From Trypanosoma brucei (lineage: Eukaryota): a stretch of 64,000 bases of DNA. A program made the translations under genes and the position numbers. The stretch is from positions 1,184,001 to 1,248,000 of the forward strand of contig CM000208.1 in NCBI GenBank assembly GCA_000002445.1, in the 5' to 3' direction. Positions within the stretch are counted from its first letter, which is position 1; each line of letters begins with the position of its first letter. Under the pieces are notes generated by a model. The model saw only the letters and a list, made by a program, of their open reading frames with translations, made no database searches and was not told where the DNA came from. Shown here piece after piece: positions 7,935 through 61,113 of the stretch.

Positions 7935-7968
7935 GATGAATTACCCCTTTTGTGCGTGTTACTAATAG

Positions 7969-7971
<3 letters not shown>

Positions 7972-8003
<32 letters not shown>
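7972..8003. repeat. (TA)n microsatellite
   Basis: ~16 TA units read directly. Confidence 0.95.
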
Positions 8004-8005
<2 letters not shown>

Positions 8006-10143
8006 TCCTTTTCTCCTTCTTCTTCAAAGCGTGTCTCAAGATAGAGAAGTGAGATGAAGAGCACCATTTAGAGTCGGAAGCGGTGAAGGAATTAAAACAA
8101 CGAAAAGATAATATTATTTTTTCCTTTGCTAAAGGGAAGAAAATGCCGTTACATAATCAACGAAACAAACAGCACAATCACACACGAATGCACCGCGCCT
8201 ACACGCAGTACAAAGAATTCGCGCATGCACTTTAATGAATACTGAATGCTGTGGGAAAACAAAAACAGAAACAAGGTATAGGCGCTGTGAGAAAAGACAG
8301 GAGTAAGGAAAAACAAAAAGATGAGCGGTGAATTTAAAAGAAAAAAAGGAAAGGGGGGAAAGAAGAGGGGGGGGAAAGAAAAAAAAAAAAATAGCGCCAG
8401 CAAAGAAAAAAAAAGAAAACGTTTCTAAAACCTTAAAGCTTAAAGAAACGGTGCCGTTCCTTCATGCTTACGCACACGTACACACACTTCCTCTCCCTTT
8501 CCAACACTGCATGTTATGTTACATCACCACAACTAATAACAACTAATAATAATATTAATACTGAAATTGATATCGTGAAAAATAGCGAAAGAACGTTGTG
8601 ATGCGGCTGGGCAATGATGCAGAGGTGAGGTTGGTCATGTGAGAAAAGAACAGCGTGCTGCAACAAACGCAAACAAAAAGAATATACGAATCGATACAAA
8701 AAAGTAAGGAAGGGAAAAACACATCTTCAAGAGGTTGTCGATCACTGGCAATTATTGCATGATATGTTAGACGGTAAATGAAGCGGATACAAATAAACAA
8801 GGAAATAGAAGGGGGGAGAAGTGGAAAAGTGGAGCAAAAATAAGACAAGAACAAAACGAACTTGTGGGTTTGGAAAAAGCGAAAGTGATGCCCAATCTAC
8901 CTGAAACTGCCAGTTGAAAAGATGAAGAAAAGTGGGGCGGAAAAAAATGGCCCCGTACGTCCACAACTCAATTTGCACTCAGTAATCCCCAAGTGCACAT
9001 AAACATTTCAATCATCTTCTTTTTAATTATTTGTCATCCAGCTAGATTCCTATAAAATTAGGTTATGAGAAGGCAACAAGCACGGCCAGAAGACAGGAAA
9101 CTGCCTCCGGTGCGATTATGAAAATTATTAGTCTTTTTTGTCCTCCCTATTCTTCTTTTCCCCTTCCTACTCACCTCTTTATTTATTTTCGCTGAAACCC
9201 CTAGTATTCTTCTACACCACGCACTCCCTTTTTTTTTTTCTGTCCCATTATTTTTACCTTTTTTTTTTCTGTACACCAACATCTCATAAAAATGTTTGTG
9301 TTTTGAATCACCATACGGTGCCATCCACCTGCTACTGTGAAAACAAAATCAAATCGAAAAAAAGAATGAAAAGCACTTTTCCCCCTTTGTGACGTGACAG
9401 AAGAAACTCCATATCAGGTGGGTCCCCCTTTAACTCTAAGGAAAAAAAAAACAAAGCGTCAACAGAGGGTAACAGAGAAAACAGAACAGAATAAAGAAAA
9501 AGAAAAGGAAATTAACAAAAACAGAGAAACGTGTACCTCGTACATACATGCAAACAAAATGAGGCACAAACACGTGCCGGAAATGGGCAACCGACATGAC
9601 TCTTCTCTCTTCTGACGCTTTTATATTTATTGTAACTTTCATTTTCTCTCATCCACCCACAGGATTTTATTGCGCATCGAGAGCCAAGAGGTGTCACATT
9701 CAGTGCCATGTGCATACGCAGAGAGGGAGGGCTGCACATTCATTAAAAGCGAATGAAAACCACAAACAAATATGTGTCCACCGCTATACGGAAATGAAAG
9801 GACCTATCGATGAGGAATATACATCACCACTCCTCCCATCCTTTTGATTGAAGCACAAATACATCCACCATAAATAATTACCGCGTGCTGATTTTGCATT
9901 TGTACGACTGCCAACGATTATTCGACGGTGCCGTTTCCTCCGCAACCCTTTTCTCTCTTCGTTCTGTCTTTTGTTTTGCTCCTTCCATCTATTGCCTTTG
10001 TTGTTATTTACGTTAAAACCGACAACTTTTCATTGGTTGTCCTCATATTTAGCCGTTAATACGGTCAATCAGGATGCCCTCACGCAAGCGCATAAATGCC
10101 TTAGATCTACACTTTACTTGGGTCTAAAACCCCCACACCATAC

Positions 10144-12618: not shown

Positions 12619-13010
12619 CAGTTTTACTTATATCCCCTCAAATAGTGTAAAGAAATAATACACACACAAACAAGAAATGAAAGGAAAGGAAAACATATAT
12701 ATACATATATATATATATATATATTCACTTTACGTTTTGAATTTCTGCGGCACAGGCGCCAAACAGCACCAGTTATACAGCACAAGAGAACATTATTGAA
12801 TAAACGAGCGGGGGAAAAGAAAAAAAGAAGGGCCAGCAAGGTGAAAACACATAAAGGAACAGACTTATGTTCCACTGGCATATTCTTTAACGGTGCCATT
12901 CTTTTTTTTTTCCTCCAGCTGCTTTTAGAAGGGGGAGGAGTGTATAGTTACCAGGAAAATGAAACATGCTCTCCAGAGAATAAACGCGGTTGCGAGCAAA
13001 TTAGTGCGTG

Positions 13011-18059: not shown

Positions 18060-18555
18060 CGCCCTAATACTACGCAGTATAAAAGGGCAAGGATGCAGCG
18101 GCGTCAGGCAGCAGATAAGTGTCCCCACACTCACCACGCAGGGACACACAAATGGGGGAGGAACAGTTCGCAACAATACCAAACGATACTATGAGCATAT
18201 AAACCTGTCACACACGAAAATCCCACTGGAGGAGAACGTGGCACACAAATTCGACCCCGCTCAGATGGTAAACCAGACAGTGACATCTCACTTTACAAAA
18301 AACTCAAAAAGAACGCAGCAGATGACAAATCGTCACGGCAATTTCACAATATGAGGTGGGCGGAGAATGGATGAAGGAAAGAGATAGTAGTCATAACGGT
18401 GGGCTCATTGTAACTATGACATGTTGTATTCGTAAATAATCATACGGTAAGGTCACCAAAAATAATACGTGTTGGAATCACTGCACAATAAACCGTCTGA
18501 CAGCCTATTCCTATGTACTAGCCAAGATGGGAAAGGTAATACATACGCACATGCG

Positions 18556-18643
18556 AAATTGCTCAGTCGGTAAGTCATGTAACATCTCACTTTACAAAAA
18601 ACTCAAAAAGAACGCAGCAGATGACAAATCGTCACGGCAATTT
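18556..18643 (-). ncRNA. Candidate C/D-box snoRNA (88 nt), copy 1
   Basis: Minus strand reads 5'-AAAUUGCc-GUGACGA-(63 nt)-CUGA-GCAAUUU-3': C-box-like GUGACGA (one mismatch to RUGAUGA), D box CUGA, perfect 7-bp terminal stem; on the transcribed strand. Confidence 0.45.
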
Positions 18644-18854
18644 CACAATATGAGGTGGGTGGAGAATGGATGAAGGAAAGAGATAGTAGTCATAACGGTG
18701 GGCTCATTGTAACTATGACATGTTGTATTCGTAAATAATCATGCGGTAAGGTCACCAAAAATAATACGTGTTGGAATCACTGCACAATAAACCGTCTGAC
18801 AGCCTATTCCTATGTACTAGCCAAGATGGGAAAGGTAATACATACGCACATGCG

Positions 18855-18942
18855 AAATTGCTCAGTCGGTAAGTCATGTAACATCTCACTTTACAAAAAA
18901 CTCAAAAAGAACGCAGCAGATGACAAATCGTCACGGCAATTT
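18855..18942 (-). ncRNA. Candidate C/D-box snoRNA (88 nt), copy 2
   Basis: Identical C box/D box/terminal-stem arrangement one repeat period (299 bp) downstream of copy 1. Confidence 0.45.
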
Positions 18943-19658
18943 CACAATATGAGGTGGGCGGAGAATGGATGAAGGAAAGAGATAGTAGTCATAACGGTGG
19001 GCTCATTGTAACTATGACATGTTGTATTCGTAAATAATCATGCGGTAAGGTCACCAAAAATAATACGTGTTGGAATCACTGCACAATAAACCGTGTGACA
19101 GCCTATTCCTATGTACTAGCCAAGATGGGAAAGGCAGACGTATAAACCCAATGCCGCTCAGTTTCTTGTGTCTCAGTGACATCCTACTTTAAACGTCAGT
19201 TCAAACAGAACGCATTTATTGACAGGGCATCATAGCGGCGATCAAACTAAGGTAGCGCAGTGACAGCTAACTCATTGTAACTATAACATGTTATATTCGT
19301 AAATAATCATACGGTAAGGTCACCAAAAACAATACGTGTTGGAACCGCAGCTTGGTGCAATAACTTGGAAAATCACAGCTCCCAGTATCTAGCCGTAAGA
19401 TCGGTACCAACCGTGGCGGCTCCGCAACCGTTGGTACCGACGCTACCGGGGCAGGGCAACGTCCGTTACAGGCATAACGCTGCAGCGATCCTTTGGCAAG
19501 CAAAGCTACGGAAAAAAGAAACACAACCAAGAGATGTGCCACCATGCGCTCGAAAGTTTATGAGTTCAGTAAACAGTCGGACAAAAGAGACTATCCCTAC
19601 ATCTCAAGCACATTAACACACGGTGGGGTTGCACAGGCCTGTACAAAACGTAATTATG

Positions 19659-19661
<3 letters not shown>

Positions 19662-19698
<37 letters not shown>
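19662..19698. repeat. (AT)n microsatellite
   Basis: ~18 AT units read directly; second (AT)n at 19975-20004. Confidence 0.95.
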
Positions 19699-19701
<3 letters not shown>

Positions 19702-19970
19702 CTGCTGTGACCTAAAGAAAAAAGTGAATAGAAAGAACGGGAAAACCGAAAGGCAGGGACGTCGATGTGTGACAGAAGGAGATGCCCTCTACCGACCCAC
19801 CCGCTCATCCATCCTAGAACGTATAAGATTTTGTACATTCCAGCCACGGCAGCACGCTCCTAGCAACCAAGAAAAATAAAATGTAGTTTGTGCAAACGGT
19901 TATGCAGCGTCCCCACCACCAAAAAAGAAAAAGGTAAACCAAAGCAAACAAAGGCGGGGGAGCATAAACG

Positions 19971-20009
<39 letters not shown>

Positions 20010-20084
20010 GGGGGACCAACAAGAGCCCTCGCAAGTACTTGAAACGAAACTAAAGGAGAAATAAGGGAAAGCACAGGCCCACAC

Positions 20085-21830
20085 CTACGCAGAAGAACAT
20101 TGACTTGTATCCAATAACTGATACGGATCGTACCAAATCGGAACCGACACACCCCCGAGGTCCACACCCGCAGCTTTACGAAGAGCCTTACGCCACTCCG
20201 CCTGACCGTCCTCGCAATACTTCGCCTTGCGGTCCATGAAGTTGTTTACGTCCCCCTCCGCTTCAGGATCCGGTAGCGTAAGAAACTCCGTAGGAAGCCG
20301 CCTGCAGCGGGAATTGGAAACACAGAGCTGGGGCTTGACCGAGTGTCCATCGCTGGAAGCTACTTTTTGCTCGAGCCCCTCGCGGCCCGTTGGCGGACGC
20401 TTCACACGGGCAGGTTGCTCTAGATCCCGATGCGAAGGCATGAGCACGTACCGAGCTTCGAGCTCCCTCACTAAGTTTGTCCACTTCTCACGCTCTCCCT
20501 TTGGAATTACTTCGATGTTCCGAAGCCAGTCCAGGTTCCGCCGGCCTCGGCCGTTCAGGTCACGCAGCCATGACTGGCGACTCTCGGTACCCCATGACAT
20601 AAGTCGCATCCGGAGCAGCTTCTCCACAAGACCAAAAAGAAATTTAAATTGGCATCCCCACTTGGGTTCACCCACGAAACGTCGCAGGACAGCTATTCCA
20701 CCGTTACCTTCAAACGAACGTTGAATGCTCTCGTCAGATTCCACAATGATGTCCGTTAAACTTTCTGCCTGCTCGGCGGAGTCACATACCTGACATAGAC
20801 GAACAAAAGTCAGTACCATGTTTGATCTATCCTCTCCCAATCCCCTCGCTGAAGGGCTCCCCATGATTTGTGTCAATTTTTCCCTCCAGCGTGTTCGTCT
20901 AGGTGAAAAGTCGTCTACCTGTTTTGCCATAGCGGGTACGACAGGGTGTTCCATGTTTATCCTCTGCTGGATTCTAGTGGCTGGTGGATAACACATGCTA
21001 CTGGCGTGTGAGTTCGAGCAGGAAGGAGTGGAATCCGTAACCCCTCCCATGCTCTCGCCTCTGGATGTACCGTCCGTGTTAGCGAGTACGGTAACCTCCG
21101 TTGTTTTCATACTTAGCCACGATCCACTCCGGAGGTAGTTTTCTACACCTTGGCGCCTGTGGGAAGCGGATGGGAAGCGCACATTCGACGCCATGCTAAG
21201 GTTTTGGTATCGTGTCCCCCCTTTCCGCCAGTCAAGGAACTTTGTATGATATGTTTGCTCCGAAAAGACACCCCCAGGTATACCCGATTCGGAGATTAGG
21301 AAATAAATAAACTGTTTGACCACCTCGTCCCACTTGGGGCGGTTTTCTTCAGATATGACATCGTAGAGTAACTTTAACATGTCGCAGCTAGTCGCGTAAG
21401 AGATCGCCAGTCCGCTCTTGTTTCCCCATGTATACCGGGGTTTTTTTACACCATTCTTCACCGCCTGAACAGCCTGCTTTTCATACTCCAAACGTACCTG
21501 TTGAAGGAACATCTCAACAGCCACTCGAAAATAGTCAACAACTCTGTAATGGCCGTCTGGAAAACTATCATAGTTGGAAGCAACATACCGGACTACGTTA
21601 CGCGCAGAAGGGGAAACATGAATAACACTATCGTCGGGTTTTAGGAACTGTAGATTTGGGTTTCGCTTAACATTGCGGAACACTGGGTCATGACCGGAAA
21701 CTGAGGAAGTTTCACCAGAGAAAACGCTCGTTGCACCCTCTGATATCTGTCTGCTAGTGCGGGAACCGACTGAGCTTGGCGCGCTACTCAGAGAACTCTT
21801 ATATGAAGTGTCATACCCCGACGAACCCAT
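20085..21830 (-). CDS. Hypothetical protein (~581 aa from MGSSGYD… at 21830; ORF track over-extends to 22052 into a repeat element)
   Basis: Long ORF in array orientation; polypyrimidine tract + AG on coding strand just upstream of Met 21830; no family recognised. Confidence 0.5.
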   Translation of the reverse strand: MGSSGYDTSYKSSLSSAPSSVGSRTSRQISEGATSVFSGETSSVSGHDPVFRNVKRNPNLQFLKPDDSVIHVSPSARNVVRYVASNYDSFPDGHYRVVDYFRVAVEMFLQQVRLEYEKQAVQAVKNGVKKPRYTWGNKSGLAISYATSCDMLKLLYDVISEENRPKWDEVVKQFIYFLISESGIPGGVFSEQTYHTKFLDWRKGGTRYQNLSMASNVRFPSASHRRQGVENYLRSGSWLSMKTTEVTVLANTDGTSRGESMGGVTDSTPSCSNSHASSMCYPPATRIQQRINMEHPVVPAMAKQVDDFSPRRTRWREKLTQIMGSPSARGLGEDRSNMVLTFVRLCQVCDSAEQAESLTDIIVESDESIQRSFEGNGGIAVLRRFVGEPKWGCQFKFLFGLVEKLLRMRLMSWGTESRQSWLRDLNGRGRRNLDWLRNIEVIPKGEREKWTNLVRELEARYVLMPSHRDLEQPARVKRPPTGREGLEQKVASSDGHSVKPQLCVSNSRCRRLPTEFLTLPDPEAEGDVNNFMDRKAKYCEDGQAEWRKALRKAAGVDLGGVSVPIWYDPYQLLDTSQCSSA

Positions 21831-21865
21831 GTTAAGCGCTCTAACACACCTACAACAAAAAAGAG

Positions 21866-22268
21866 AAAGGAAAAAAGAGATTACGTATATCCGACGGGGC
21901 AACAACAGCAAAGTATAACAGATGCAACACAACACACGAGGCACATGCCGAGGTTGAGGTGCCGATACCCAAGGAGGTAATATTAAAATAATGTAACACA
22001 TAAACTTCTGCACGTGAACTTCCCGAACAAACACAAACACACAAACACACACAGAAGATAATCAGACAGCTCTTATTTCCCTCACACATTTGAGTTCACA
22101 CTACTCTATAACATGGAACGGAACAAAGTGGAACTTCAGCACGCAGAGAATACAAGAAAAACAAATTACCACTGGAGGTGTGTATAAAACAAAAATAAAC
22201 GTCCGCCAGAGAGAGAGAGATAGAGGGAAAGAGGCGATGTATCTGAAAATAATACCACTTCCGCGTAG
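21866..22268. repeat. ~400-bp dispersed repeat, copy A (inverted relative to copy B at 59993-60395; ~97 % identity)
   Basis: Direct alignment of A with the reverse complement of 59993-60395 shows only a few substitutions and microsatellite length differences; homology ends abruptly at both edges. Confidence 0.9.
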
Positions 22269-22537
22269 GGGAGTTGAATGTAAGCAAATATATATACGAT
22301 GTACTAGGTGTACAGTCATAACGGATGTCTGTACATATATATATATACTATGGCATTGCGGTAACAGCACACGACCCGACGCGGCACGCCAAGGAGTAAA
22401 AGATAGAACAATAATTAAAATTTAAAAAAAAAACACCTCTGTTCTGGCACATTCCCTCTCTCTTTACTGCTCGGGCACTAATCGAAGGGGTACGGGTCTC
22501 CACTATGTGCATCACCGAATGTAACGGCGGGCACACC

Positions 22538-22951
22538 TTATTTACGGAATGACACTACACGATCAAGGATGGTGCGCCCAATGAGTATCTGGGCCTTCAG
22601 CCTCGCCAGCATTCGGTGATCAGCGAGGGTGCCGGTCCCGTCGCTGCTGCACACAATCAAACTCGGCATCAACATCTGAGGATGGCCACGTGAAGTTACT
22701 GCGGATGCGGGGGGGCTCAAGGAATCAAGAATCGTTGTGGAGAGCGACATTACATCTTCCTCCCCGCCTTTTCCCGTATCGCTTCCGATACGTTCCCAAC
22801 GCATGAGGGCCATTCTGTAGAAGCAAAGCAACTCTCTTGGATCAGCACCGGGTTCGATCCTGATTCCATCAAGTGCGCACAATGCCTCCAGGTGAACGAC
22901 TGGTGTAACGCGCTGATCCCTTAACAGAGCAAACATGTCAATTACCTGCAT
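22538..22951 (-). CDS. Hypothetical protein (137 aa)
   Basis: ORF in array orientation between two other genes; no family recognised. Confidence 0.35.
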   Translation of the reverse strand: MQVIDMFALLRDQRVTPVVHLEALCALDGIRIEPGADPRELLCFYRMALMRWERIGSDTGKGGEEDVMSLSTTILDSLSPPASAVTSRGHPQMLMPSLIVCSSDGTGTLADHRMLARLKAQILIGRTILDRVVSFRK

Positions 22952-28353: not shown

Positions 28354-28818
28354 TAGTTTCTATTGTCGCGGACGGCGCTCTTCTAACAATCGAACAAATC
28401 ACCTATGAGATACCAATAATATATATATATATATATATCAAAAAAGCAGTGAACCCGGGGAGAATATGCAGTGCACAGAAGCGCAGGAGGAAGGAAAACA
28501 ACCAATGAAAAATGCTAACACAACGGTGCGACCGCTAGTTACCTCCAAATACCTAGAGTACAAACATAGGTAAAATATGTAGCGGGGCAAATCAGGACCG
28601 GCGACCACGCACTAAAGTGTACCGCCTGGGATTACAAACACATTGATACATCCCAAAAACCAGAGGGTTGATAACTCTACTGCAGCAATTGTCGAGTGCA
28701 TCTATCGATAGCAAGAAGCATTTGGTCACTCCCTCTTCCCAAACTTGTAACGAAACTCTTTTTTTTGCTCTATCTGGTTTAACTCCGTTATGTGGCTTCA
28801 GGATGTAATACCTGTTTA

Positions 28819-43580: not shown

Positions 43581-43781
43581 ATCTCCTGATAATAAGAAAA
43601 TAAATGTGGCAAAGCTTTCCCTTTAAGGGGACTTGAAAGTTGTGATAAAGAGAAGCCAATTTGATGGTATTAACGAAACGAATGGGATGAATGCAGTGTG
43701 ACATATTCTAAAGGAAGGGTGTCTAAGCAATGTCCACACAAACGCGGTCACACCACAGCAGTCTCTTTTTTTTTTTCTGTT

Positions 43782-43784
<3 letters not shown>

Positions 43785-43814
<30 letters not shown>
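43785..43814. repeat. (AT)n microsatellite
   Basis: ~15 AT units read directly. Confidence 0.95.
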
Positions 43815-43817
<3 letters not shown>

Positions 43818-43968
43818 TATGTGTGTGTCTGTGTGTTCATCTTTATATATCATTAAGTACGTAGTCATTAGAGACTTCTTTCCCTGTAGGATATCAACAG
43901 AAGTAATAACATTTGATCAAGTGTTCGTTTTTATCCTCGGACATATATATTCCCTCTCCCCCGTTATA

Positions 43969-45282: not shown

Positions 45283-45536
45283 CTTGCCTGTTTTTTCTCC
45301 CCCACCAAAGAGCTTGAGGCTCAAAACAGTAGTAACAGTACAAGGCGAATAGAAAAGATGTTCAATAATTAGCAAACACATATCAACTCACGGCTATGTG
45401 CATGCACATACGCTCAAAAATTTTAAAAATCCGATGGGTCATTTTTTAGTCGCACACAGTAAATAAAATAATAGCAGAGGAGAGCGAGGAAGTGAGTCAA
45501 AAAGATTAGATGGAACACAACATCGGAGACAAACAT

Positions 45537-45980
45537 TCATAGGAGTAGCTTTTTCTTTCGATGCTCTAGTTTTGTAGGCTTCATACGTGTTCTTTTTGGC
45601 CATTTATTCTCGCCGCCCTTCGAGGCTTTTAAGCTGCTTTTCAACTGTTTTTGGATAGACAAATTCTTCCAGTCCAGGAACGGTGCCCTCTTCAGATCCG
45701 ATGGAAGGTGCACAAGTCGTACACTTGATCCCTTTAAGAAAACACGACCCTCTACAGAAAGCGAAGAGTCTCGGTGCTGGCACCGCACATCAATAAGTTC
45801 TATGTCCCCACATATTGCATCAAGTTGCATCAGCTTGCCATCATAAACACTGCCATCAGTAGTTTCCACCTTGACGAGGAATCCGGTCGCCTCACAAATG
45901 GCACGTAAGGGAATATCAGCTACACCTTCCATATCCCTAATAACGACTACCTCAACGATCAACTTGCCTATTTCTCCCAC
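45537..45980 (-). CDS. Sm-like (SmD3-type fold) protein with basic C-terminal tail (147 aa)
   Basis: Sm1/Sm2 motifs (…FLVKVETTDGSVYDGKLMQLDAICGDIELIDV…RVFLKGSSVRLVHLPSDL) aligning best with SmD3; first gene of the minus-strand array. Confidence 0.6.
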   Translation of the reverse strand: MGEIGKLIVEVVVIRDMEGVADIPLRAICEATGFLVKVETTDGSVYDGKLMQLDAICGDIELIDVRCQHRDSSLSVEGRVFLKGSSVRLVHLPSDLKRAPFLDWKNLSIQKQLKSSLKASKGGENKWPKRTRMKPTKLEHRKKKLLL

Positions 45981-48900
45981 AATTTTGACAATTTGAAAAA
46001 AGTGCTAGTGGCGACCAAATCATGCAAAAAATCGACTTTCTTTACGTCTTATTACAAATTAATGCACTCACACACGGTGCTCCCGAACACAAAAAAGTTC
46101 AGGGCAAGCCAGAGAGGGAAAAGAGGCGTACGAAAACCACCAAGTGCTATGAAACATAGATGCCAAAAACAAAACCCTATCGCACAACACCACCTTCGTG
46201 GAGTGTCATCGCGGTCCACGCGAGTCCGGGGCCTCCGTGTCGCGCTGCGAGCAGCAACGACATATGGGTGAAGTATGCCCACGCACAATCGTCCTGAAGA
46301 ATAAAGAAAAACTGCTCCATAAGCCTGTTTACAGACACACTTCACAAAGACATAAACAGTAGGATGTCACTGGAATCAACAGACAACTAGGAACAAGGTT
46401 GCAAAAAAAAAGTCCATTTGATTGCTTCTCACATCAAACATTACATACATACACATGCTATACCGCTCTATACCACCTTACGAATCAACATATGGGTGGA
46501 ACCCCCGCACAAAGCGCGTCCTGCACAACAAATCCCCACGACCAATAGCAACCAGAAAATGAGCAAAAGCGGTTACGGCGGCGCCCGCCGCGATGTGCTG
46601 GAAACAGAAGTAAAAGAAAGATGGAGAAAATTCCACAACAACGATCTCCCACATCGGGACGCTGCTCCGCGCTGCAGCATAAGAAAGGGGCTCCTCTCAA
46701 TTTCCATGCTCACACGAGGGGCTGCTAATGACGGGAAGGCTACGAAGATGGTGAAGTAGCCACAGGGGTCCCCCGTCCGCTTCGGATCCGACGATCGTCT
46801 GTCGTACCCCATCGCCTGTGAACAAAATGTCCCAAACCGAAGAAACCCCAGCTCTCTCCGGCGCTCTAGCCCCAGCCTCGCTACGGTTTTTTGGCCCGCG
46901 CCACCGGCAACCACCAGCAAAGAACGGGGAGGAGCACACCCACGAACTCTGGTGCCCCAAGGCACCGAAGCGTAGTGCGACAAACCGTTAGGAAAGAGTT
47001 GTCACGGACAAAAACGAAAAGAAGAGGAGAAAACCCATGGGGTGCCACTCACACCCATACCGCTAACGCCTGGCACCCGCTTAGGTGAATCAGAGGCAAA
47101 GAACCACCTCTCCACCCGTACCTGAAACCCTTGAAGCAACCACTGCCACTTCGGCCTCTGCAGCGATATCCTCGAGCGCTTTGTTTACATGGGACAGACC
47201 GCTGAGCGTAGGTAGGGAGTAAAGTGACTCAATCACAGTGCTTTTGAGCCTGCCGCAAAAGCGCAGATTTTTCACTTTCTTCAAAAGACACCACGGCCAG
47301 CGGTGCCGGCCACCGACCCACTACAAGCATAGTGGTTGCTAAACATGGGGTGGTTTTGCCACCACCGCCACCATACGGATCGGTAACTAGTTCCCGCCGG
47401 CCGCTACTTGTGGCAGTAGCCAGTTGACGGGGATAGGGCGGTAGTGATGTATGTTGACCTTTTGCCACGGCTCGATCCTCCGTCCCACCGATGCGCCGGC
47501 ACCTCCATCAGTACGCTGAACGCGGAGCACTACAAGCTGCGTTAACAACCGGATGAGTTTCCCATTTCGGAAAGTAAGATTTCGCCGATCGGAAGGTTGA
47601 TCATCCCCTTGGTTTTTGCGACTTAATGAGCATGTTGGACGCTCACGATTTGGAAGTCAGTTGTGGGTGCTGCAGCGGAGGCCCTGGAGGGACACGAAAT
47701 CGCGCATTGCATTTCGATAAACGCAGTGCACCATTATAAAAGCGATTATTCACGTTCGGTGGGGAGTCTTCATCACACTTTACTGTGCCGCAAATGATGC
47801 ACCACGGTAAATTCGGGGCGAAATCAAAAGGTACCAGCATACGGTTCCACTGAAGATACAATCCTGAGACTGTAGTATTCAGGAGGGACCCAGCAATATT
47901 TGCAGTGAGAGAAGAACTGACCTATTGGCCCACCGAGACGTCCACCAACACGATTCTGTCCTCCTCATGCGTTACCATGTGAATGCGCGCACTTCCCTCC
48001 CCCCATACACACACCACCCCAGAACTGATGCATGTCTGGTATATCTCGAACAACTTTACACCCCGCTAACGCGTGGCTCCGTTCAACTTCTTTGAAGTGT
48101 GATTTTGCGAAGGCACCCCCACCCCTAATCCAAACTACAACTTTTTACAATCATCTCTCGGTGTCTAAAAGCTCGTTATTCGCTGCAAAGCGTTGGTTAA
48201 GCACAAAATTGTATACGCCTACGGACTACATAGTACCCGAGTTCAAAGAGAACCATCGACAGCTACCGCAGCGTTCCCACTATTCAGCACAACGGGGCAC
48301 TTCCGAAGTACTGTAGGTAACGGCCGATAGTCTGTGGAATTATACACTTTACACAAACAGGGCATATAATTATGCGGTGATTTCCCTAGTGTTCGATGCT
48401 ATTCAAGATGTGAGAATGCATTTCCTACGGTGACTAAAAGTGTGTTATATCGACATAGTTTTCCCCCGCACATACTAATAATATACTATGCGGTGTTATG
48501 TGCACAATATGGGAGGTGTGGCTACTGTATATGTTATTTGTTAACTCTTCCTTCGGATGAAACACTACAGTGTCACACCTCTCCTTCTCACATCATATGT
48601 ATGTGCTTCACCTCACATTATTACTCCATACCATCGTGTTCTAATGGGAAAAATAATGCGGAATGATAGATTAGGTGAAAAAAGAAAAGATCAGAAAGGC
48701 ATGACTATCTCTCTCTATGGTGTGTGGTATACGCTGTTGATGCTTTGAAAGTTCTGCATCATCACGTGATATCGTATATCCACATGCTGTGTGCATGTAT
48801 TCGTGTGATGCATGCTTGGAACAATGGAGAGTGTGACCATGTCAGTTTGTGTTCACCACCGTGCTCTTCATCTGTAGGAGTAGGTAAAACTAACAACAGA

Positions 48901-51566
48901 TCATCAATATTTCAACGAAGGGAAGACAGGGTCGGTTTTAATATGCGGCCGCCGAGTATCGGAGCAACGGTGGAGCCCCAACGTATCCGTAGTGTTCAAC
49001 CCCCTCCGTTGCGGTCTCCGCGTCCCCGCTCCTCATTGTTCGGCCGCTTTTGAAGACGCCACGTTGAGACTGGAACCTGTGTCTTGCCGCTTTTGCTGGA
49101 AAGAGGAAGGAAGATCACTGTGGCCACTAACAGTGGAGGGTCGGGTGTCGTGAGATGTGTCTATCTTCCGTTGGGGTTTTCTTCTTGGGAAAGCGGTTTA
49201 CCTTAGTGGGCGGCGGTAACCTGTTCTATTTGGAAGGATGTCGTGCAGGGGGTGAGTGAGTTTTCTTGACCAAGTTTACGAATTTGTTGTGCACCCCTGT
49301 TTTATCCCACTGCTTGAAGTGTTTCGGAATAGATGATAGGGAGGATGGTATGGCAAGAAACCTGCCGGGACCTTTACCGTTTCACCGCTGACTACATGTT
49401 CCCACAATTTTCTACCATATCCTTCGGGCGGCATTGCAGTGAGAGTGCCATGTGGGACAGGGGACAGATTGGAACTTGATCTTCCGGAGGTCTTCGGAGT
49501 TATAGAGTGATTGCTTCTCTTCTCCTTTCCTTTGGCGTGACTCTCATACGGAGGCTCTTGGTGAGCAGGATACAATTCGCCTGCTGACTTTTTGGTTTAT
49601 TTTTTCCCATATTTCAGTGTTGCGGGGTCACTTTCGGCACCGTTGGGAATCGAGAAGTGACGTATAAAGGTGTTCGCTTCTGCAGCAAAAAGTGGTTCCG
49701 TTTGGTATTCATTTGTGGAGACACTTTCCCTCCTTTCCATTTCGGAAAACTTTTTGTCACGGAAGAAGGGCTTTTGGTATTGTCCCGTCCGATGATCTTT
49801 GCCCCGATCGTTCCATCATGAATAATAGCTACAACTGTGTGTGTCTGTACGGCTGTGGATATTTCCCCAGTCCCCAATCGCTTCGGTCGCTTTTACTCTT
49901 TTATAGCACGGTTTAGAGTTGGTAAACTGGTGCCGTTCTGTGGAAGCAGTGGCCGGAGGAAAGTGTGGGGTGAAGTCGTTAGCTCGTTTGAGTTGACGCA
50001 GGCCTTGGAGAATGTCATGTGGTGACCTCCGTGGGCTGTGGCCGTGTCGCCAATTTGTGGCGGCGCAGTCCTTTGATGTGACTGAATCGGGTGCATAACT
50101 TGTTCTCCGGCCATGCTCACGGTTTTTTTTGTTTTCGCTGCCGCTTCAGCCGTCTTCTCCCCAGCAGATTATGAAATATGGTCCGGCGCGTGGGGGAAAT
50201 GAGTTGGTTCCACCCAAGAACGTTGGAGCCAGAGGCCTATGCTGCCTTTTCCCGTGTGTATTTGTGAAGGGGGGGGGGACGAGGCTCAGAGGAGCGGCAT
50301 GTCCATTTTTTGTGAATCCTCTTTGTCCACTGGGGAAGGAGATTGAAGTCAGGGTTGCCTGGGGGGATGACTCAATGCGCGCCGTCGGATGAGCAAACTT
50401 ATGTTTAGCGGCCCTTGTGGTGATTGCGTCAACCGGTGGGTCGACGGTAGTGGTGAGCTCAACTTCTGTTTTTGAGTTGCCGGAGCTCCGCCGCTGTGCC
50501 GGCAAAGGGGAAGGTTGGTACTGGTTAGCCCTCAGGGTACAGAGTTTGGTCTCAAATACACTGAAGGCGCCCCCTACTCGGCAGCCGCGCCTCTGAGCGC
50601 TGTTCGCCCGGATGAGTTGGTTCGTAGATGCTGCACTGGGCGCTGTGTAAAGCTCGTGGGGGGTTGGAATGGATGTGATAATCGCGTAGCAGTTTAGTGA
50701 GGATGGCGTCGACGGCGACGCCCTTTCGCATCCCTGAAGTCTTTAATATGTCTGTTCTTGTTCGACGAGGGGTTTGCTGCGGATCCCACCAAGAGTTGGT
50801 CTCGCAGTATTTTGGCCGCGGCTCTGCCCACGCTGGGTGAATTGCGCTTTGCCTGGTTTCCCCCGCCAGAGCGGGGTACAGTGGCCGGGCTGCGCGTGTG
50901 GGGTGCCGTCATTGCTGAGTGTGTCGGTGTTGTGCCCGCCCCGTTCCTGTTGCGTTAAGCAGGATTGGGCCCGGTGGGGGTTTGGTGACTCCAACCGAAG
51001 CGTCGGCATGTGGATGCGCCCCATCGTTTCTGGTGGCTGACATGTTTGGTTTCGTCGTATTGGGCCCAGGGTTATAGTGGGCGACAGGGTCTGGCTTGCG
51101 TAACCCGTCGCTTTTTCTTGTTGGCAGTTGGTGCCTTTTATTCGACGGTGGTGGCGTTTTCTGGAAATCGGTCCCCGTTCTGGGGTTCTGTCGTTGAAGG
51201 ACTCCTTGTACTTACCATATTATGATATGCATTTTGTTTGCCACCGTATGGCTTCGTTTTCTGTTTGCGTCCCTAACAGAGCAGGTGGTATCGTGGATAC
51301 CGGCGGTGCGAGGGGTTGTGCATGTTATGGCGGGCTTTGCACGACGAGCCTTGAATCCACCTTTTTTAATTATTTCAGTTCGGATTGCAGGTGATGTGCT
51401 TGCCCACACCCTGCAATTTGTTTAAAGTTTAATGGCAGTGCCGATGCCATTTTTGTCTTGGCGTATGCTAGGCGCGTGAGTTGTAGATGTCTAAGAAAAT
51501 AGTGTTGATATAGCCCTCTGTTTTTTGTTTAAGTGGTGATGTTATTGTTTTTCTTTAATCTTCCTG
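45981..51566. promoter_or_regulatory. Divergent strand-switch region (candidate bidirectional RNA pol II transcription start region), no convincing CDS
   Basis: Flanked by first gene of minus array (…45980) and first gene of plus array (51567…); only short unrecognisable ORFs; 46.0-47.5 kb C+A-rich on plus strand, 49.0-51.5 kb G+T-rich with G-runs (G10 at ~50270). Confidence 0.6.
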
Positions 51567-56023: not shown

Positions 56024-58264
56024 ATGAGGAGGTTTTGTGATGTCGTCTTTTATCCGAACCGATTTTACCGATTGGCGTCGTCGGCTTTCTTAAAAAACAT
56101 TGATAAGCTTCGAAATATCGGTATCAGCGCACACATTGACAGTGGAAAGACAACTGTCACTGAACGAATCCTTTTTTATACCGGTAGAATCGACAAAATC
56201 CACGAAGTTAAAGGGGGATCAGAGGTTGGTGCAACAATGGATTCGATGGAACTTGAAAAAGAAAGGGGGATAACAATCCGTTCCGCCGCAACACAGTGCA
56301 AATGGGGTGATCATTTGATTAATATAATAGACACCCCTGGACATGTCGATTTTACTATTGAAGTGGAACGTGCCCTTCGTGTCCTCGACGGTGCAGTGAT
56401 GCTGATGTGCGGAGTCGGTGGTGTGCAGAGTCAGACCCTTACGGTGGACAGACAGATGAAGAGGTATGGTGTGCCCCGTGTTTGTTTTATCAATAAACTA
56501 GATCGTGACAATGCTAACCCTAGGCGTGCATTGGAAATGGCGAGGGAACGCTTGGGGGTGAATGCCGCATTTATTCATCTCAATATGGGAGTTGCACAAG
56601 ACTTTGAAGGTGTTGTCGACGTCATAGAGTCCCGTGCTGTATACTTTGACGGTAAAAATGGGGAAAAGATCCGATTTGAGGATATACCAAGCTACATTGC
56701 CGATGACGTGGTGGCAACACGAAAGGAGCTTATATCAAGATTGGCTGACTGTGATGCCGAAATGGAAGATGTTTTCTTAAACGATGTGGAGCCTACAGCA
56801 GAGCAGATTCACTCAGCGATTCGGCGCACCACGATTGCAAACAAGTTTGTGCCTGTGTTAGTGGGTTCAGCCTACAAGAACAAAGGCATACAACTTCTTC
56901 TTGATGCCGTCTGTCGTTACCTACCTTCCCCAATGGAGAAGCCAAATTCGGGTTACTCGGTGACCAAGGTAAAGGACGATGAAGGTAACGTTGCCAACGT
57001 TAAGGGCGAGATCGTTCCTTTAGCGACTGATGACGAAAAACCTCTCGTGGCAGCTATATTTAAGCTTGAGGAAACGAAGAAAACCGGCCTTCTTAATTAC
57101 ATTCGTGTTTACCAGGGTAAAATGAGAAGGGAACATTTAATGAATGTTCGTAGCGGAAAAACGTTTCTTCCTCAGAAGCTGGTCCGTATGCACGCGAATT
57201 CCACCGATCAGATCGATGAAGTGAGGGCGGGTGACATATGCGCTATCCAGGGTGAAATCGATGCGTCATCTGGAGATACTATCGTGAAGGCAGGTGTGAC
57301 GGCCGGTCAACTAATTACTTGTGAGGACATGTATGTACCACCACGTGTCATTTCCGCGTCAGTCAAAATCAACAATGACCGCGACAGTAGCAAGTTGAGA
57401 GAGCGAATGGGCGCATTCATGCGGGAGGACCCGACTTTCTGTTTTTATCGTAACACGGAAACAAATGAGGATATCGTCGAAGGCATGGGGGAACTTCATC
57501 TCGATATATACATTGAGCGCTTGAAGCGCGAGTATGATCTTGAAGTGGTGTTGGGCAAACCGACGGTCAACTATCGTGAAGTGATCACTGAGAGAAAGGA
57601 ATTTGATTTCGTTTACAAAAGGCAAAGTGGTGGTGCAGGACAGTGGGCCCAACTGAAGGGATTCATCGATGTGCTACCCATTGATATGTCGGTGGAGAAA
57701 GGAGTGAAAAACAAGGTTACCGTAAAGTGTTCCAACGGGGATGTACGTGAGGCCTTACAAAAGTCTGTCGTCAAACAGCTGGAGAGGAAAATTTTTGTGA
57801 AGGGGGAGTTGATGGGCGCTCCTGTATGGGGCGTTCACTTTCACCTTAGCGGGGGTGCGATGCATGAGGTGGACTCGACAGACTTAGCATTCAGGAACGC
57901 AACTCAAGAGCTGTGGGAGACGCTCCTTCCTCAGTTAAAACCTACACTTGTTGAACCCTACATGGTTGTGGAGATTACAGTTCCATCGACTTGCATGACT
58001 GATGTGAGCACTGAGTTTGCAAAGCGTGAAGGCGTTGTTACAGAGACGACTATTAGCGGAACAGATGCTATAATTCGTGGAGAGACAGCTCTGGATACAA
58101 TGTTTGGGTTCATTTCTGATCTCCGCAGACTTACAAAGGGTCAAGGGGATTTTGGCATGCAGTTTAAGGAGTACCGACCGATGCAGCAGTACAAAGCGCA
58201 ATGTCGCATGGACGAGCGGAACAAAGACCTTGGTCGTAAGCTGTACAGGTTGAGTGGACAGTAA
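56024..58264 (+). CDS. Mitochondrial elongation factor G (EF-G1) (746 aa)
   Basis: GTPase motifs G1-G4 (AHIDSGKTT, DTPGH, NKLD); EF-G domains II-V collinear; N-terminal ~35 aa presequence-like (MRRFCDVVFYPNRFYRLASSAFL). Confidence 0.9.
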   Translation: MRRFCDVVFYPNRFYRLASSAFLKNIDKLRNIGISAHIDSGKTTVTERILFYTGRIDKIHEVKGGSEVGATMDSMELEKERGITIRSAATQCKWGDHLINIIDTPGHVDFTIEVERALRVLDGAVMLMCGVGGVQSQTLTVDRQMKRYGVPRVCFINKLDRDNANPRRALEMARERLGVNAAFIHLNMGVAQDFEGVVDVIESRAVYFDGKNGEKIRFEDIPSYIADDVVATRKELISRLADCDAEMEDVFLNDVEPTAEQIHSAIRRTTIANKFVPVLVGSAYKNKGIQLLLDAVCRYLPSPMEKPNSGYSVTKVKDDEGNVANVKGEIVPLATDDEKPLVAAIFKLEETKKTGLLNYIRVYQGKMRREHLMNVRSGKTFLPQKLVRMHANSTDQIDEVRAGDICAIQGEIDASSGDTIVKAGVTAGQLITCEDMYVPPRVISASVKINNDRDSSKLRERMGAFMREDPTFCFYRNTETNEDIVEGMGELHLDIYIERLKREYDLEVVLGKPTVNYREVITERKEFDFVYKRQSGGAGQWAQLKGFIDVLPIDMSVEKGVKNKVTVKCSNGDVREALQKSVVKQLERKIFVKGELMGAPVWGVHFHLSGGAMHEVDSTDLAFRNATQELWETLLPQLKPTLVEPYMVVEITVPSTCMTDVSTEFAKREGVVTETTISGTDAIIRGETALDTMFGFISDLRRLTKGQGDFGMQFKEYRPMQQYKAQCRMDERNKDLGRKLYRLSGQ

Positions 58265-59992: not shown

Positions 59993-60395
59993 GTAAAAGT
60001 GGTATTATTTTCAGATACATCGCCTCTTTCCCTCTATCTCTCTCTCTCTCTGGCGGACGTTTATTTTTGTTTTATACACACCTCCAGTGGTAATTTGTTT
60101 TTCTTGTATTCTCTGCGTGCTGAGGTTCCACTTTGTTCCATTCCATGTTATAGAGTAGTGTGAACTCAAATGTGTGAGGGAAATAAGAGCTGTCTGATTA
60201 TCTTCTGTGTGTGTGTTTGTGTGTTTGTGTTTGTTCGGGAAGTTCACGTGCAGAAGTTTATGTGTTACATTATTTTAATATTACCTCCTTGGGTATCGGC
60301 ACCTCAACCTCGGCATGTGCCTCGTGTGTTGTGTTGCATCTGTTATACTTTGCTGTTGTTGCCCCGTCGGATATACGTAATCTCTTCTTCTTTCG
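59993..60395. repeat. ~400-bp dispersed repeat, copy B (reverse complement of copy A at 21866-22268)
   Basis: See copy A; ends ~120 bp upstream of the eIF4E-family ATG; contains (GA)n and (GT)n-like microsatellites and a pyrimidine-rich 3' end. Confidence 0.9.
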
Positions 60396-60501
60396 GTGTG
60401 ATGGATTTGAACTTGGTTAAGTAAGAAACGACAATTGGGAGAAATAGTTGTGACTGACGGAAACCCTGGCAGGACAGGGAACAAGGGACATTCTTCAGTA
60501 A

Positions 60502-61113
<612 letters not shown>

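What the first reader, a model, noticed from the sequence alone, without database searches (positions are those of the whole stretch)
21866..22268. Near-identical ~400-bp inverted repeat pair placed just upstream of two unrelated genes on opposite strands (second copy 59993-60395)
21866-22268 and the reverse complement of 59993-60395 align end-to-end at ~97 % identity. Differences are a few substitutions plus length changes in internal (CA)n/(GA)n runs. Similarity stops abruptly at both edges. Both copies have the same orientation relative to transcription. Copy A ends 35 nt 5' of Met 21830 of a 581-aa hypothetical gene (minus strand). Copy B ends ~120 nt 5' of the eIF4E-family gene ATG (plus strand). 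The element's pyrimidine-rich 3' end contributes to the polypyrimidine tract/AG region where spliced-leader addition is expected. The two downstream genes share no similarity, so this is not a gene duplication. Possible explanations are a short interspersed/retroposon-like element that supplies trans-splicing signals, or a recently homogenised 5'-flank cassette that could co-regulate both mRNAs. It also creates spurious ORFs in the six-frame track that inflate the apparent start of the 20085 gene.
Basis: seen in the sequence. Interest (0 to 1): 0.65.

Follow-up and report, generated by a model that had tools for sequence, protein, structure and literature searches.

The report
Duplicated splice-acceptor spacer kept identical
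A roughly 400-bp piece of non-coding spacer DNA sits in front of two unrelated Trypanosoma brucei genes (JBP3 and EIF4E5) on either side of a transcription start region; the two copies are kept almost identical by gene conversion and are not a jumping element, so this is a real but fairly ordinary genomic curiosity.

Summary
The repeat is real. Copy A is 21852-22260 (sense on the minus strand) and copy B is 59997-60399 (plus strand). Over 386 core positions they differ by 2 substitutions and two 2-nt microsatellite indels. The flanks are unique and there is no third copy in the window.

The window is T. brucei-group chromosome 10. The copies lie in the two arms of a divergent strand-switch region, so both are transcribed in the same sense. 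Copy A ends 21 nt before the ATG of the JBP3 orthologue. Copy B ends 126 nt before the ATG of EIF4E5 (Tb927.10.5020).

Both copies, with the same junctions, occur in T. b. gambiense DAL972 and T. equiperdum IVM-t1. Neither T. cruzi nor T. vivax has them. Four substitutions and one 8-nt insertion are shared by the two copies of one genome but differ between genomes, and no core site groups by locus. That pattern means interlocus gene conversion.

The unit has no target-site duplication, A-tail, Pr77 start, spliced-leader remnant, Rfam match, stable fold or frame-conserved ORF. It is no better conserved between strains than its flanks. Its 3' ~150 nt is AG-free and ends in a polypyrimidine tract just before the first AG, which fits a passive trans-splice acceptor region.

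The SINE reading is not supported, homogenisation is supported, and co-regulation is untested. Genome-wide copy number could not be checked.

The parts
21852..22260 (-). Copy A of the duplicated unit (409 nt, sense on the minus strand). It lies in the 707-nt spacer between a conserved 137-aa gene and the JBP3 orthologue.
59997..60399 (+). Copy B of the duplicated unit (403 nt, sense on the plus strand). It lies in the 2.26-kb spacer between the EF-G gene and EIF4E5 and carries a 10-nt deletion in its 3' polyY tract relative to copy A.
22208..22234 (-). polyY1 of copy A (CCTCTTTCCCTCTATCTCTCTCTCTCT). The first AG after it is at 22173-22172, a candidate alternative spliced-leader acceptor.
   Evidence: read from sequence; use as an acceptor is inferred
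21852..21880 (-). polyY2 of copy A, the 3' end of the unit.
21850..21851 (-). First AG after the 153-nt AG-free run (22004-21852). Predicted major spliced-leader acceptor of JBP3, giving a 19-nt 5'UTR.
   Evidence: consensus from PMC2916883; inferred
60023..60051 (+). polyY1 of copy B. The first AG after it is at 60086-60087.
60381..60399 (+). polyY2 of copy B, shortened and interrupted in this genome.
60420..60421 (+). First AG after the 163-nt AG-free run (60257-60419). Predicted spliced-leader acceptor of EIF4E5, giving a 104-nt 5'UTR.
   Evidence: inferred
20085..21830 (-). Gene downstream of copy A: the 581-aa orthologue of Leishmania JBP3. It contains the DWRKGGTRY J-binding signature.
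60526..61113 (+). Gene downstream of copy B: EIF4E5 (Tb927.10.5020), 195 aa.
22538..22951 (-). Conserved 137-aa gene upstream of copy A. Its stop codon lies 278 nt before the unit.
56024..58264 (+). EF-G family gene upstream of copy B. Its stop codon lies 1732 nt before the unit.
45382..51566 (.). Divergent strand-switch region between the two polycistronic arms that carry the copies.

Best explanation
A segment of about 409 bp of intergenic DNA was duplicated in inverted orientation within the T. brucei lineage. One copy now lies in each arm of a divergent strand-switch region on chromosome 10, immediately upstream of JBP3 and of EIF4E5. It was copied as DNA, not through retroposition. Since then the two copies have repeatedly exchanged sequence by interlocus gene conversion, which keeps them 99-99.7% identical within each genome. 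Because the arms are transcribed divergently, both copies are read in the same sense. In that sense the unit is a typical trypanosome processing spacer. It starts with one polypyrimidine tract. Its last ~150 nt form an AG-free zone that ends in a second polypyrimidine tract. The first AG after that tract is the predicted spliced-leader acceptor of the downstream gene. The unit therefore most likely acts passively as the trans-splice acceptor region of both genes, and possibly as part of the polyadenylation-determining region or 3'UTR of the upstream genes, without a sequence-specific regulatory role. What is shown: the duplication, its presence across the T. brucei group, its absence from T. 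cruzi and T. vivax, the concerted evolution, and the lack of transposon, RNA-gene and coding features. What is inferred: which splice sites are used, the direction of the original copying (copy A looks like the insertion), and the absence of a regulatory role.
For: The duplication has unique flanks and only two copies in 64 kb. The same two loci, the same junctions and the same 37.7-kb spacing are seen in T. b. gambiense DAL972 and T. equiperdum IVM-t1. Concerted evolution: alignment columns 94, 267, 358 and 400 and an 8-nt insertion group the sequences by genome, and no core site groups them by locus. Paralogue differences are 2, 1 and 3, against 3-9 for orthologues. Lineage specificity: T. 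cruzi and T. vivax keep the same gene order around both genes but share no upstream sequence and have no homologue of the unit. The spacer from the 137-aa gene to JBP3 is 256 nt in T. cruzi, 354 nt in T. vivax and 707 nt (298 + 409) in T. brucei. Splice signals: polyY2 starts about 30 nt (A) and about 39 nt (B) upstream of the first AG. This falls inside the published -14 to -43 window for major T. brucei acceptor sites (PMC2916883). The AG-free runs of 153 and 163 nt are among the longest on the sense strand, and comparable runs in the window mostly end just upstream of gene starts. No extra constraint: between-strain mismatches are 1.2-2.5% in the unit and 0.6-1.0% in the flanking spacer.
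Against: Genome-wide copy number was not measurable with these tools, so a third or source copy elsewhere cannot be excluded. No spliced-leader or poly(A) mapping data could be retrieved, so the acceptor assignment is only a sequence prediction. The AG-free run is only modestly unusual (about 3% of mononucleotide shuffles reach it). T. congolense, the closest outgroup, could not be examined. Variants shared between paralogues could partly reflect conversions that predate the split of the sampled lineages. The strain comparison (3 genomes, few substitutions) has little power to detect weak selection.
Confidence: 0.7

Rival explanations
1. A selected regulatory cassette. The shared unit gives JBP3 and EIF4E5 mRNAs a common long 5'UTR, spliced after polyY1 and carrying four uATGs, or a common processing efficiency. 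Its near-identity would then be maintained by selection for co-regulation.
For: PolyY1 followed by an AG 35 nt later is a plausible alternative acceptor in both copies. Four ATGs lie in the unit in the sense orientation. T. brucei genes have a median of two acceptor sites (PMC2916883). Both copies sit in the same position relative to their genes.
Against: The unit evolves at least as fast between strains as its flanks. The microsatellite indels and the 10-nt polyY2 deletion differ between copies and between strains. No equivalent shared element exists in T. cruzi or T. vivax. The identity pattern is explained by gene conversion alone. The fold is no more stable than shuffled sequence (z = -0.15).
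Confidence: 0.12
2. A small independent non-coding transcript duplicated to two places: a spliced-leader-capped, polyadenylated lncRNA of about 200-300 nt, bounded by its own polyY1 acceptor and by the polyY2 of the next gene.
For: The layout polyY - AG - about 300 nt - polyY - AG mirrors that of a trypanosome gene cassette.
Against: There is no Rfam family and no stable or unusual fold. ORFs change frame between copies because of microsatellite indels. No called protein in the 5.8-billion-sequence database carries the element frame apart from JBP3 models. There is no extra conservation between strains.
Confidence: 0.08
3. A short non-autonomous retroposon (RIME/TbSIDER-like SINE), or another mobile element, that inserted upstream of both genes.
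For: It is a discrete unit with sharp edges at two unrelated loci. Short ingi-clade elements of 260-1030 bp exist in T. brucei (PMC3820030).
Against: There is no target-site duplication (longest flank match 4-5 nt), no A run of 5 nt or more, and no A-rich 3' end on either strand. CCCTGG, the first six bases of the published L1Tc Pr77 primer (CCCTGGCTCAGCCGG), is absent from both strands. There is no spliced-leader remnant and no HDV-like ribozyme or other Rfam hit. The length of 403-409 nt does not fit the 571-nt TbSIDER1 consensus. TbSIDER copies are a median 16% diverged from consensus, whereas this pair differs by less than 1%.
Confidence: 0.06
4. A dsRNA/siRNA-producing long inverted repeat of the kind catalogued in T. 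brucei (IR1-IR7).
For: The arms are near-identical and similar in size to IR1 (422 bp). All seven catalogued inverted repeats yield siRNAs and share very high arm identity (PMC3447711).
Against: The arms lie in opposite, divergently transcribed polycistronic units separated by the transcription start region. Both are therefore transcribed in the same sense, so the RNAs are identical rather than complementary, and no single transcript should span both arms. The pair is not among the seven repeats listed; chromosome 10 has only IR6, at 467-478 kb.
Confidence: 0.03
5. An assembly or collapse artefact.
For: Short-read assemblies break at the unit.
Against: The pair is present with unique flanks and copy-specific differences in three independent assemblies, including chromosome-scale ones of 3.9 and 4.1 Mb.
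Confidence: 0.01

Closest known systems
Long inverted repeats IR1-IR7 of T. brucei (Tschudi et al. 2012, PMC3447711)
   Same: Both are low-copy inverted duplications inside megabase chromosomes with essentially identical arms. Arm length is close to that of IR1 (422 bp). The high identity implies ongoing homogenisation.
   Different: Each listed repeat spans only about 3.6-12 kb in total and produces siRNAs. Here the arms are 37.7 kb apart, straddle a divergent strand-switch region and are transcribed in the same sense, so no hairpin RNA is expected. This pair is not in their table.
Concerted evolution of duplicated sequences by interlocus gene conversion (general mechanism; established knowledge)
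   Same: Paralogues within a genome are more alike than orthologues between genomes. Homology stops abruptly at unique flanks.
   Different: The usual trypanosome examples are tandem gene arrays with their spacers. Here the unit is non-coding, dispersed, inverted, and placed upstream of two unrelated single-copy genes.
Trypanosome trans-splicing acceptor regions (polyY tract plus AG; Nilsson et al. 2010, PMC2916883)
   Same: There is a polyY tract of 14-24 nt starting about 30-39 nt upstream of the first AG, preceded by an AG-free zone. The predicted 5'UTRs of 19 and 104 nt fall in the normal range.
   Different: Ordinary acceptor regions are unique sequences. Here about 400 nt of one is shared almost base for base by two genes. 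Acceptor use was not verified experimentally.
RIME / TbSIDER1-2 short ingi-clade retroposons (Bringaud et al. 2011, PMC3820030)
   Same: A short, non-coding, dispersed repeat lying in intergenic DNA.
   Different: It lacks the 5' 76-79-nt signature, an A-rich tail and a TSD. The length is wrong. TbSIDERs are about 16% diverged from consensus, whereas this pair is more than 99% identical.

Membership tests
ingi-clade short retroposons (RIME, TbSIDER1/2) | 5'-terminal 76-79-nt signature (Pr77), which starts CCCTGGC... | tested here: not met
   CCCTGG and its complement CCAGGG are absent from both copies. Only the first 15 nt of L1Tc Pr77 were available as a reference. No HDV-like ribozyme or any other Rfam hit was found.
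ingi-clade short retroposons (RIME, TbSIDER1/2) | A-rich 3' tail and a target-site duplication flanking the element | tested here: not met
   There is no A run of 5 nt or more. The sense 3' end is T/C-rich and the antisense 3' end is ...CCACTT. The longest match between the 5' and 3' flanks is 5 nt (A) and 4 nt (B).
ingi-clade short retroposons (RIME, TbSIDER1/2) | Family of dispersed copies (10 + 12 TbSIDER copies, with the TbSIDER1 consensus at 571 nt) | not testable with these tools
   No T. brucei whole-genome collection was searchable. Only 2 copies occur in the 64-kb window. The length here is 403-409 nt.
Processed retrocopy of an mRNA | Spliced-leader sequence at the 5' end and poly(A) at the 3' end | tested here: not met
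   The 3' 15 nt of the spliced leader (sequence taken from my own knowledge) has no match in the window at up to 2 mismatches. There is no A tail.
Duplicates under interlocus gene conversion (concerted evolution) | Paralogues within a genome are closer than orthologues between genomes, and derived variants are shared by both copies of one genome | tested here: met
   The six-sequence alignment and distance matrix give paralogue differences of 2/1/3 against orthologue differences of 3-9. Columns 94, 267, 358 and 400 and an 8-nt insertion are genome-specific in both copies.
Duplicates under interlocus gene conversion (concerted evolution) | Same insertion junctions in all genomes (a single ancestral duplication) and absence from outgroups | tested here: met
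   The flanks are identical in the window, DAL972 and IVM-t1. The unit is absent from the syntenic loci of T. cruzi and T. vivax. T. congolense was not testable.
Trans-splice acceptor region | PolyY tract of about 15 nt lying within about -14 to -43 of an AG, with an AG-free zone upstream | tested here: met
   Read from sequence. AG-free runs are 153 and 163 nt, reached by about 3% of shuffles. The consensus comes from PMC2916883.
Trans-splice acceptor region | Spliced-leader addition mapped at that AG in RNA | not testable with these tools
   The supplements of PMC2916883 held no entry for the gene ID. No RNA-derived contigs were retrievable.
siRNA-producing long inverted repeats (IR1-IR7) | Both arms transcribed so as to give complementary RNA, and siRNAs detected | tested here: not met
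   The arms lie in opposite divergent polycistronic units and are both in the sense orientation, so complementarity at the RNA level is not expected. This step is an inference. siRNA data were not testable. The pair is absent from the published table.
Structured ncRNA / snoRNA gene | Match to a curated RNA family, or a fold more stable than shuffled sequence | tested here: not met
   Rfam gave 0 hits at gathering score over the window. At E <= 1 the only hit was a chance lncRNA match of 15.8 bits. MFE z-score is -0.15.

The most novel reading that the evidence does not exclude
The pair is more than a passive duplicate, in one of two ways. (a) It is a shared processing/5'UTR module that couples expression of a transcription-termination factor (JBP3) and a cap-binding factor (EIF4E5). 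(b) It is a recombination substrate whose crossovers can invert the 37.7-kb segment holding the whole divergent strand-switch region. Such an inversion would keep every gene co-directional with its polycistron but would swap which arm feeds JBP3 and which feeds EIF4E5. The repeated gene conversion seen here shows that the two copies do pair and recombine. All three T. brucei-group assemblies, and the outgroups, have the same orientation, so no inversion is fixed.
Probability: 0.1. Interest if true: 0.55.

Novelty: new member of a known kind. Interest (0 to 1): 0.3.

Why it matters
There are four modest reasons.

1. It is a clean natural example of interlocus gene conversion acting on a short (about 400 bp), non-coding, dispersed inverted repeat across 38 kb and across a transcription start region in T. 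brucei. This bears on how readily ectopic recombination operates in core chromosome regions.

2. It explains wrong gene models. Public JBP3 models of 638-670 aa start inside the repeat, while the conserved start is Met 21830.

3. It breaks short-read assemblies. It will also cause multi-mapping of spliced-leader and 5'UTR reads for JBP3 and EIF4E5, so expression or splice-site calls for these two genes need care.

4. It offers a natural experiment: two unrelated genes share the same ~400-nt acceptor region, which allows a test of how far the upstream spacer determines processing efficiency.

Tried and rejected
**Inversion-breakpoint origin (staggered-break model).** Rejected. T. cruzi and T. 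vivax have the same gene order on both sides as T. brucei. RESC6-like, 180-aa, 201-aa, 341-aa and 137-aa genes precede JBP3, and the ubiquitin-like, kinase and EF-G genes precede EIF4E5.

**Extra copies detected through called proteins.** Searching with the 655-aa ORF, which includes 74 element-derived residues, returned only JBP3 orthologues. This is a weak negative, because small ORFs are seldom called.

**Spliced-leader site data.** The supplements of Nilsson 2010 held no entry for Tb927.10.5020, and the gene ID for TbJBP3 was not given in PMC7055916 or PMC8544896. RNA-derived Logan contigs for the 581-aa and 638-aa products are not on record.

**Relic of the T. cruzi 395-aa CAP-Gly/CRAL-TRIO gene in the long EF-G to EIF4E5 spacer.** tblastn found nothing.

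**Extended or older homology around the unit.** blastn and tblastx of the whole spacers found none.

**Metagenome scan with an invariant 40-mer.** No matches.

**T. congolense.** The orthologues (P0006, P0023) have no contig on record, so the nearest outgroup was not examined.

Full report
**1. Observation**

Aligning 21800-22340 with the reverse complement of 59920-60470 gives one continuous block of near-identity flanked by unrelated sequence. The repeat finder reports the same pair as three abutting inverted segments, split only by two dinucleotide-repeat length differences (I1-I3). BLASTN of copy A against the whole window finds itself, copy B (97.75% over 400 columns) and otherwise only microsatellite-level noise. 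A sensitive blastn/tblastx comparison of the two complete spacers finds no further homology. Over 386 ungapped core positions the two copies differ by 2 substitutions, plus two 2-nt indels in the (TC)n and (TG)n runs.

The 3' edge needs a correction. In T. b. gambiense both copies remain identical through a 29-nt polypyrimidine tract. In the window, copy B has a 10-nt deletion and three substitutions there. The units are therefore A = 21852-22260 (409 nt, sense on the minus strand) and B = 59997-60399 (403 nt, plus strand).

**2. Context**

- All long ORFs from 1 to 45381 are on the minus strand and all from 51567 onward are on the plus strand. GC skew changes sign near 48 kb. This is a divergent strand-switch region of a trypanosomatid chromosome.
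- The EIF4E protein encoded at 60526-61113 is identical to that of T. b. gambiense DAL972 chromosome 10 (FN554973.1) and T. equiperdum OVI. The window is 99.2% identical to DAL972 over 13.5 kb. The source is therefore a T. brucei-group genome; the exact strain was not identified.
- The gene after copy B is EIF4E5, Tb927.10.5020 (Pfam IF4E).
- The gene after copy A is the orthologue of Leishmania JBP3. One source names the L. donovani homologue JBP3, at E = 3.5e-80. There is a sub-threshold Pfam DB_JBP1 match at residues 97-210. The protein contains DWRKGGTRY, which fits the D-(W/F/Y)-x-x-GGTRY signature described for JBP3 and JBP1 (PMC8544896).
- Orthologues from six other Trypanosoma species begin with unrelated, mostly Ser-rich N-termini that resemble the sequence following Met 21830. 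The element-derived extension (MCYIILILPP...) is seen only in T. brucei-group gene models of 638 and 670 aa.
- Upstream of copy A lies a genuine small gene, 22538-22951 (137 aa). It is 29% identical to the syntenic T. cruzi and T. vivax ORFs, with pairwise E-values of 2.5e-13 and 4e-9.
- Upstream of copy B lies an EF-G family gene.

**3. Distribution**

Both copies occur at the same two loci, with the same junctions and about 37.7 kb apart, in DAL972 (L007, L001/L013) and in T. equiperdum IVM-t1 (L004, L012).

Short-read assemblies break there:
- A T. equiperdum OVI contig begins inside copy B.
- Another OVI contig ends 49 nt into copy A.
- Three Logan contigs end exactly 30 nt into copy A, as expected for a k = 31 graph entering a repeat.

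Assembly artefact is therefore excluded.

T. cruzi (L014-L017) and T. vivax (L018, L019) conserve the gene order on both sides. The upstream regions of their JBP3 and EIF4E5 genes share nothing beyond simple repeats, and the T. brucei unit has no homologue there. The spacer between the 137-aa gene and JBP3 is 256 nt in T. cruzi, 354 nt in T. vivax and 707 nt in T. brucei, which is 298 nt plus the 409-nt unit. Copy A therefore looks like an insertion into an otherwise ordinary spacer (an inference). T. congolense could not be examined.

**4. Concerted evolution**

This comes from the six-sequence alignment of three genomes with two copies each and its tabulation.

- Four substitutions (columns 94, 267, 358, 400) and an 8-nt insertion are shared by both copies of one genome and differ between genomes.
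- No core site separates all A copies from all B copies.
- Within-genome paralogue differences are 2, 1 and 3 substitutions. Orthologous A-A and B-B differences are 3 to 9.
- The junctions are identical in all genomes, so the duplication happened once, before these lineages separated. The pattern therefore requires transfer of sequence between the loci, that is, interlocus gene conversion on several occasions.
- In DAL972 the A-type 3' edge is present in copy B. Either a conversion tract reached the end of the unit there, or the deletion arose later in the other lineage.

Between strains the unit shows 1.2-2.5% mismatches, against 0.6-1.0% in the adjacent unique spacer and 0.2-0.4% in the coding DNA downstream of copy A (0.1-0.3% in the EIF4E5 5' flank plus CDS downstream of copy B). 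There is thus no sign of purifying selection on the unit itself.

**5. What it is not**

- *Not a retroposon.* There is no target-site duplication (longest flank match 4-5 nt), no A run of 5 nt or more, and no A-rich 3' end on either strand. CCCTGG, which begins the published L1Tc Pr77 primer (CCCTGGCTCAGCCGG), is absent. The length does not fit: TbSIDER1 is 571 nt. TbSIDERs are about 16% diverged from their consensus (PMC3820030).
- *Not a processed retrocopy.* There is no spliced-leader remnant and no poly(A).
- *Not a known or structured RNA.* Rfam gives nothing at gathering score across the window, and only a 15.8-bit chance hit at E <= 1 around the unit. The minimum-free-energy fold is no better than shuffled sequence, z = -0.15.
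- *Not coding.* The longest sense ORFs change frame between the copies because of the (TG)n indel. The protein database holds no product carrying the element frame other than JBP3 models.
- *Not a remnant of an inversion.* Synteny is unchanged in the outgroups.
- *Not expected to give double-stranded RNA.* The arms lie in opposite, divergent transcription units and are both in the sense orientation. The pair is absent from the published catalogue of seven T. brucei long inverted repeats (PMC3447711).

**6. How it most likely works**

Read in the sense of transcription, the unit has this layout:
- 26 nt of leading sequence.
- A 27-29-nt polypyrimidine tract (polyY1).
- A T-rich stretch with the first AG 35 nt after polyY1.
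- A middle part containing four ATGs and a (TG)n/(TTTG)n run.
- A final 150 nt containing no AG at all, ending in a second polypyrimidine tract (polyY2).

The AG-free runs are 22004-21852 (153 nt) and 60257-60419 (163 nt). They are among the longest on the sense strands of the window, and about half of the comparable sense-strand runs end just upstream of gene starts. About 3% of mononucleotide shuffles of the unit reach this length, so the signal is suggestive rather than decisive.

The first AG after polyY2 is at 21851/21850, which is 19 nt before the JBP3 ATG. For EIF4E5 it is at 60420/60421, which is 104 nt before the ATG. PolyY2 begins about 30 and about 39 nt upstream of these AGs. Published major acceptor sites in T. 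brucei are AG preceded by a polyY tract at -14 to -43, with median 5'UTRs of 32-47 nt and a median of two sites per gene (PMC2916883).

The best-supported reading is that the 3' part of the unit is the branch/polyY/AG-exclusion region of the spliced-leader acceptor of both genes. PolyY1 may provide an alternative acceptor, or may direct polyadenylation of the upstream gene. These steps are inferred from sequence; no spliced-leader mapping could be retrieved.

**7. Comparison with known things, and novelty**

The closest described objects are the long inverted repeats IR1-IR7 of T. brucei. They have arms of 422-10,011 bp that are essentially identical. They differ in being compact and in producing siRNAs.

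Mechanistically this is ordinary concerted evolution of a low-copy duplication. Functionally it is an ordinary trans-splicing spacer. What is unusual is the combination:
- the unit is non-coding, dispersed and inverted;
- it straddles a transcription start region;
- it serves two unrelated single-copy regulatory genes.

I rate it as a new member of a known kind. It has practical consequences for gene models, assembly and read mapping, and modest biological interest.

The most novel readings not excluded are a real co-regulatory module, or a substrate for a transcriptionally neutral 37.7-kb inversion of the strand-switch region. Together I give these about 10%.

**8. Limits**

- Genome-wide copy number, T. 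congolense, splice-site usage and small-RNA data could not be tested with the available collections.
- The comparison rests on three genomes.

Noticed in passing
window 18280-19351 (minus-strand sense; spacer between the JBP3 stop at 20085 and the next small gene): A 299-bp unit is tandemly repeated about 3 times at 99% identity, with an older partial 81-nt copy at 19271-19351. T. b. gambiense and T. equiperdum IVM-t1 have only one 257-nt copy plus the partial one, so this is a strain-specific amplification in the JBP3 3' spacer. It has no Rfam match.
   Followed up: partly
L004 12311-14227 (IVM-t1, 638 aa) and L007 10864-12876 (DAL972, 670 aa); window ORF 20085-22052: Public gene models of the JBP3 orthologue start inside the repeat unit. 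The extension is not conserved in any other Trypanosoma orthologue, so the true start is most likely Met 21830 (581 aa).
   Followed up: yes
L017 7169-8356 (T. cruzi) versus window 58265-59996: T. cruzi has a 395-aa CAP-Gly/CRAL-TRIO gene between EF-G and EIF4E5. T. vivax lacks it, and so does T. brucei, where tblastn finds no relic even though the spacer is 2.26 kb long.
   Followed up: partly
window 60381-60399; L012 and L001 equivalents: The polyY tract in front of EIF4E5 carries a 10-nt deletion and 3 substitutions in the window genome and in IVM-t1 but is intact in T. b. gambiense. This is a natural polymorphism in the predicted splice-acceptor signal of EIF4E5.
   Followed up: partly
window 22538-22951 (minus strand): A 137-aa ORF with no Pfam match is a conserved syntenic gene: it is 29% identical to ORFs at the same position in T. 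cruzi and T. vivax.
   Followed up: partly
window 7956-8020, 12683-12755, 19653-19717, 19965-20021, 28411-28459, 43769-43843: Long (TA)n microsatellites recur in intergenic spacers and account for most of the other 'repeat families' reported by the repeat finder.
   Followed up: no
window 45382-51566: The divergent strand-switch region is a stretch of about 6 kb without long ORFs and without tRNA genes. The DAL972 and IVM-t1 annotations call two small minus-strand ORFs (131 and 79 aa) there.
   Followed up: no
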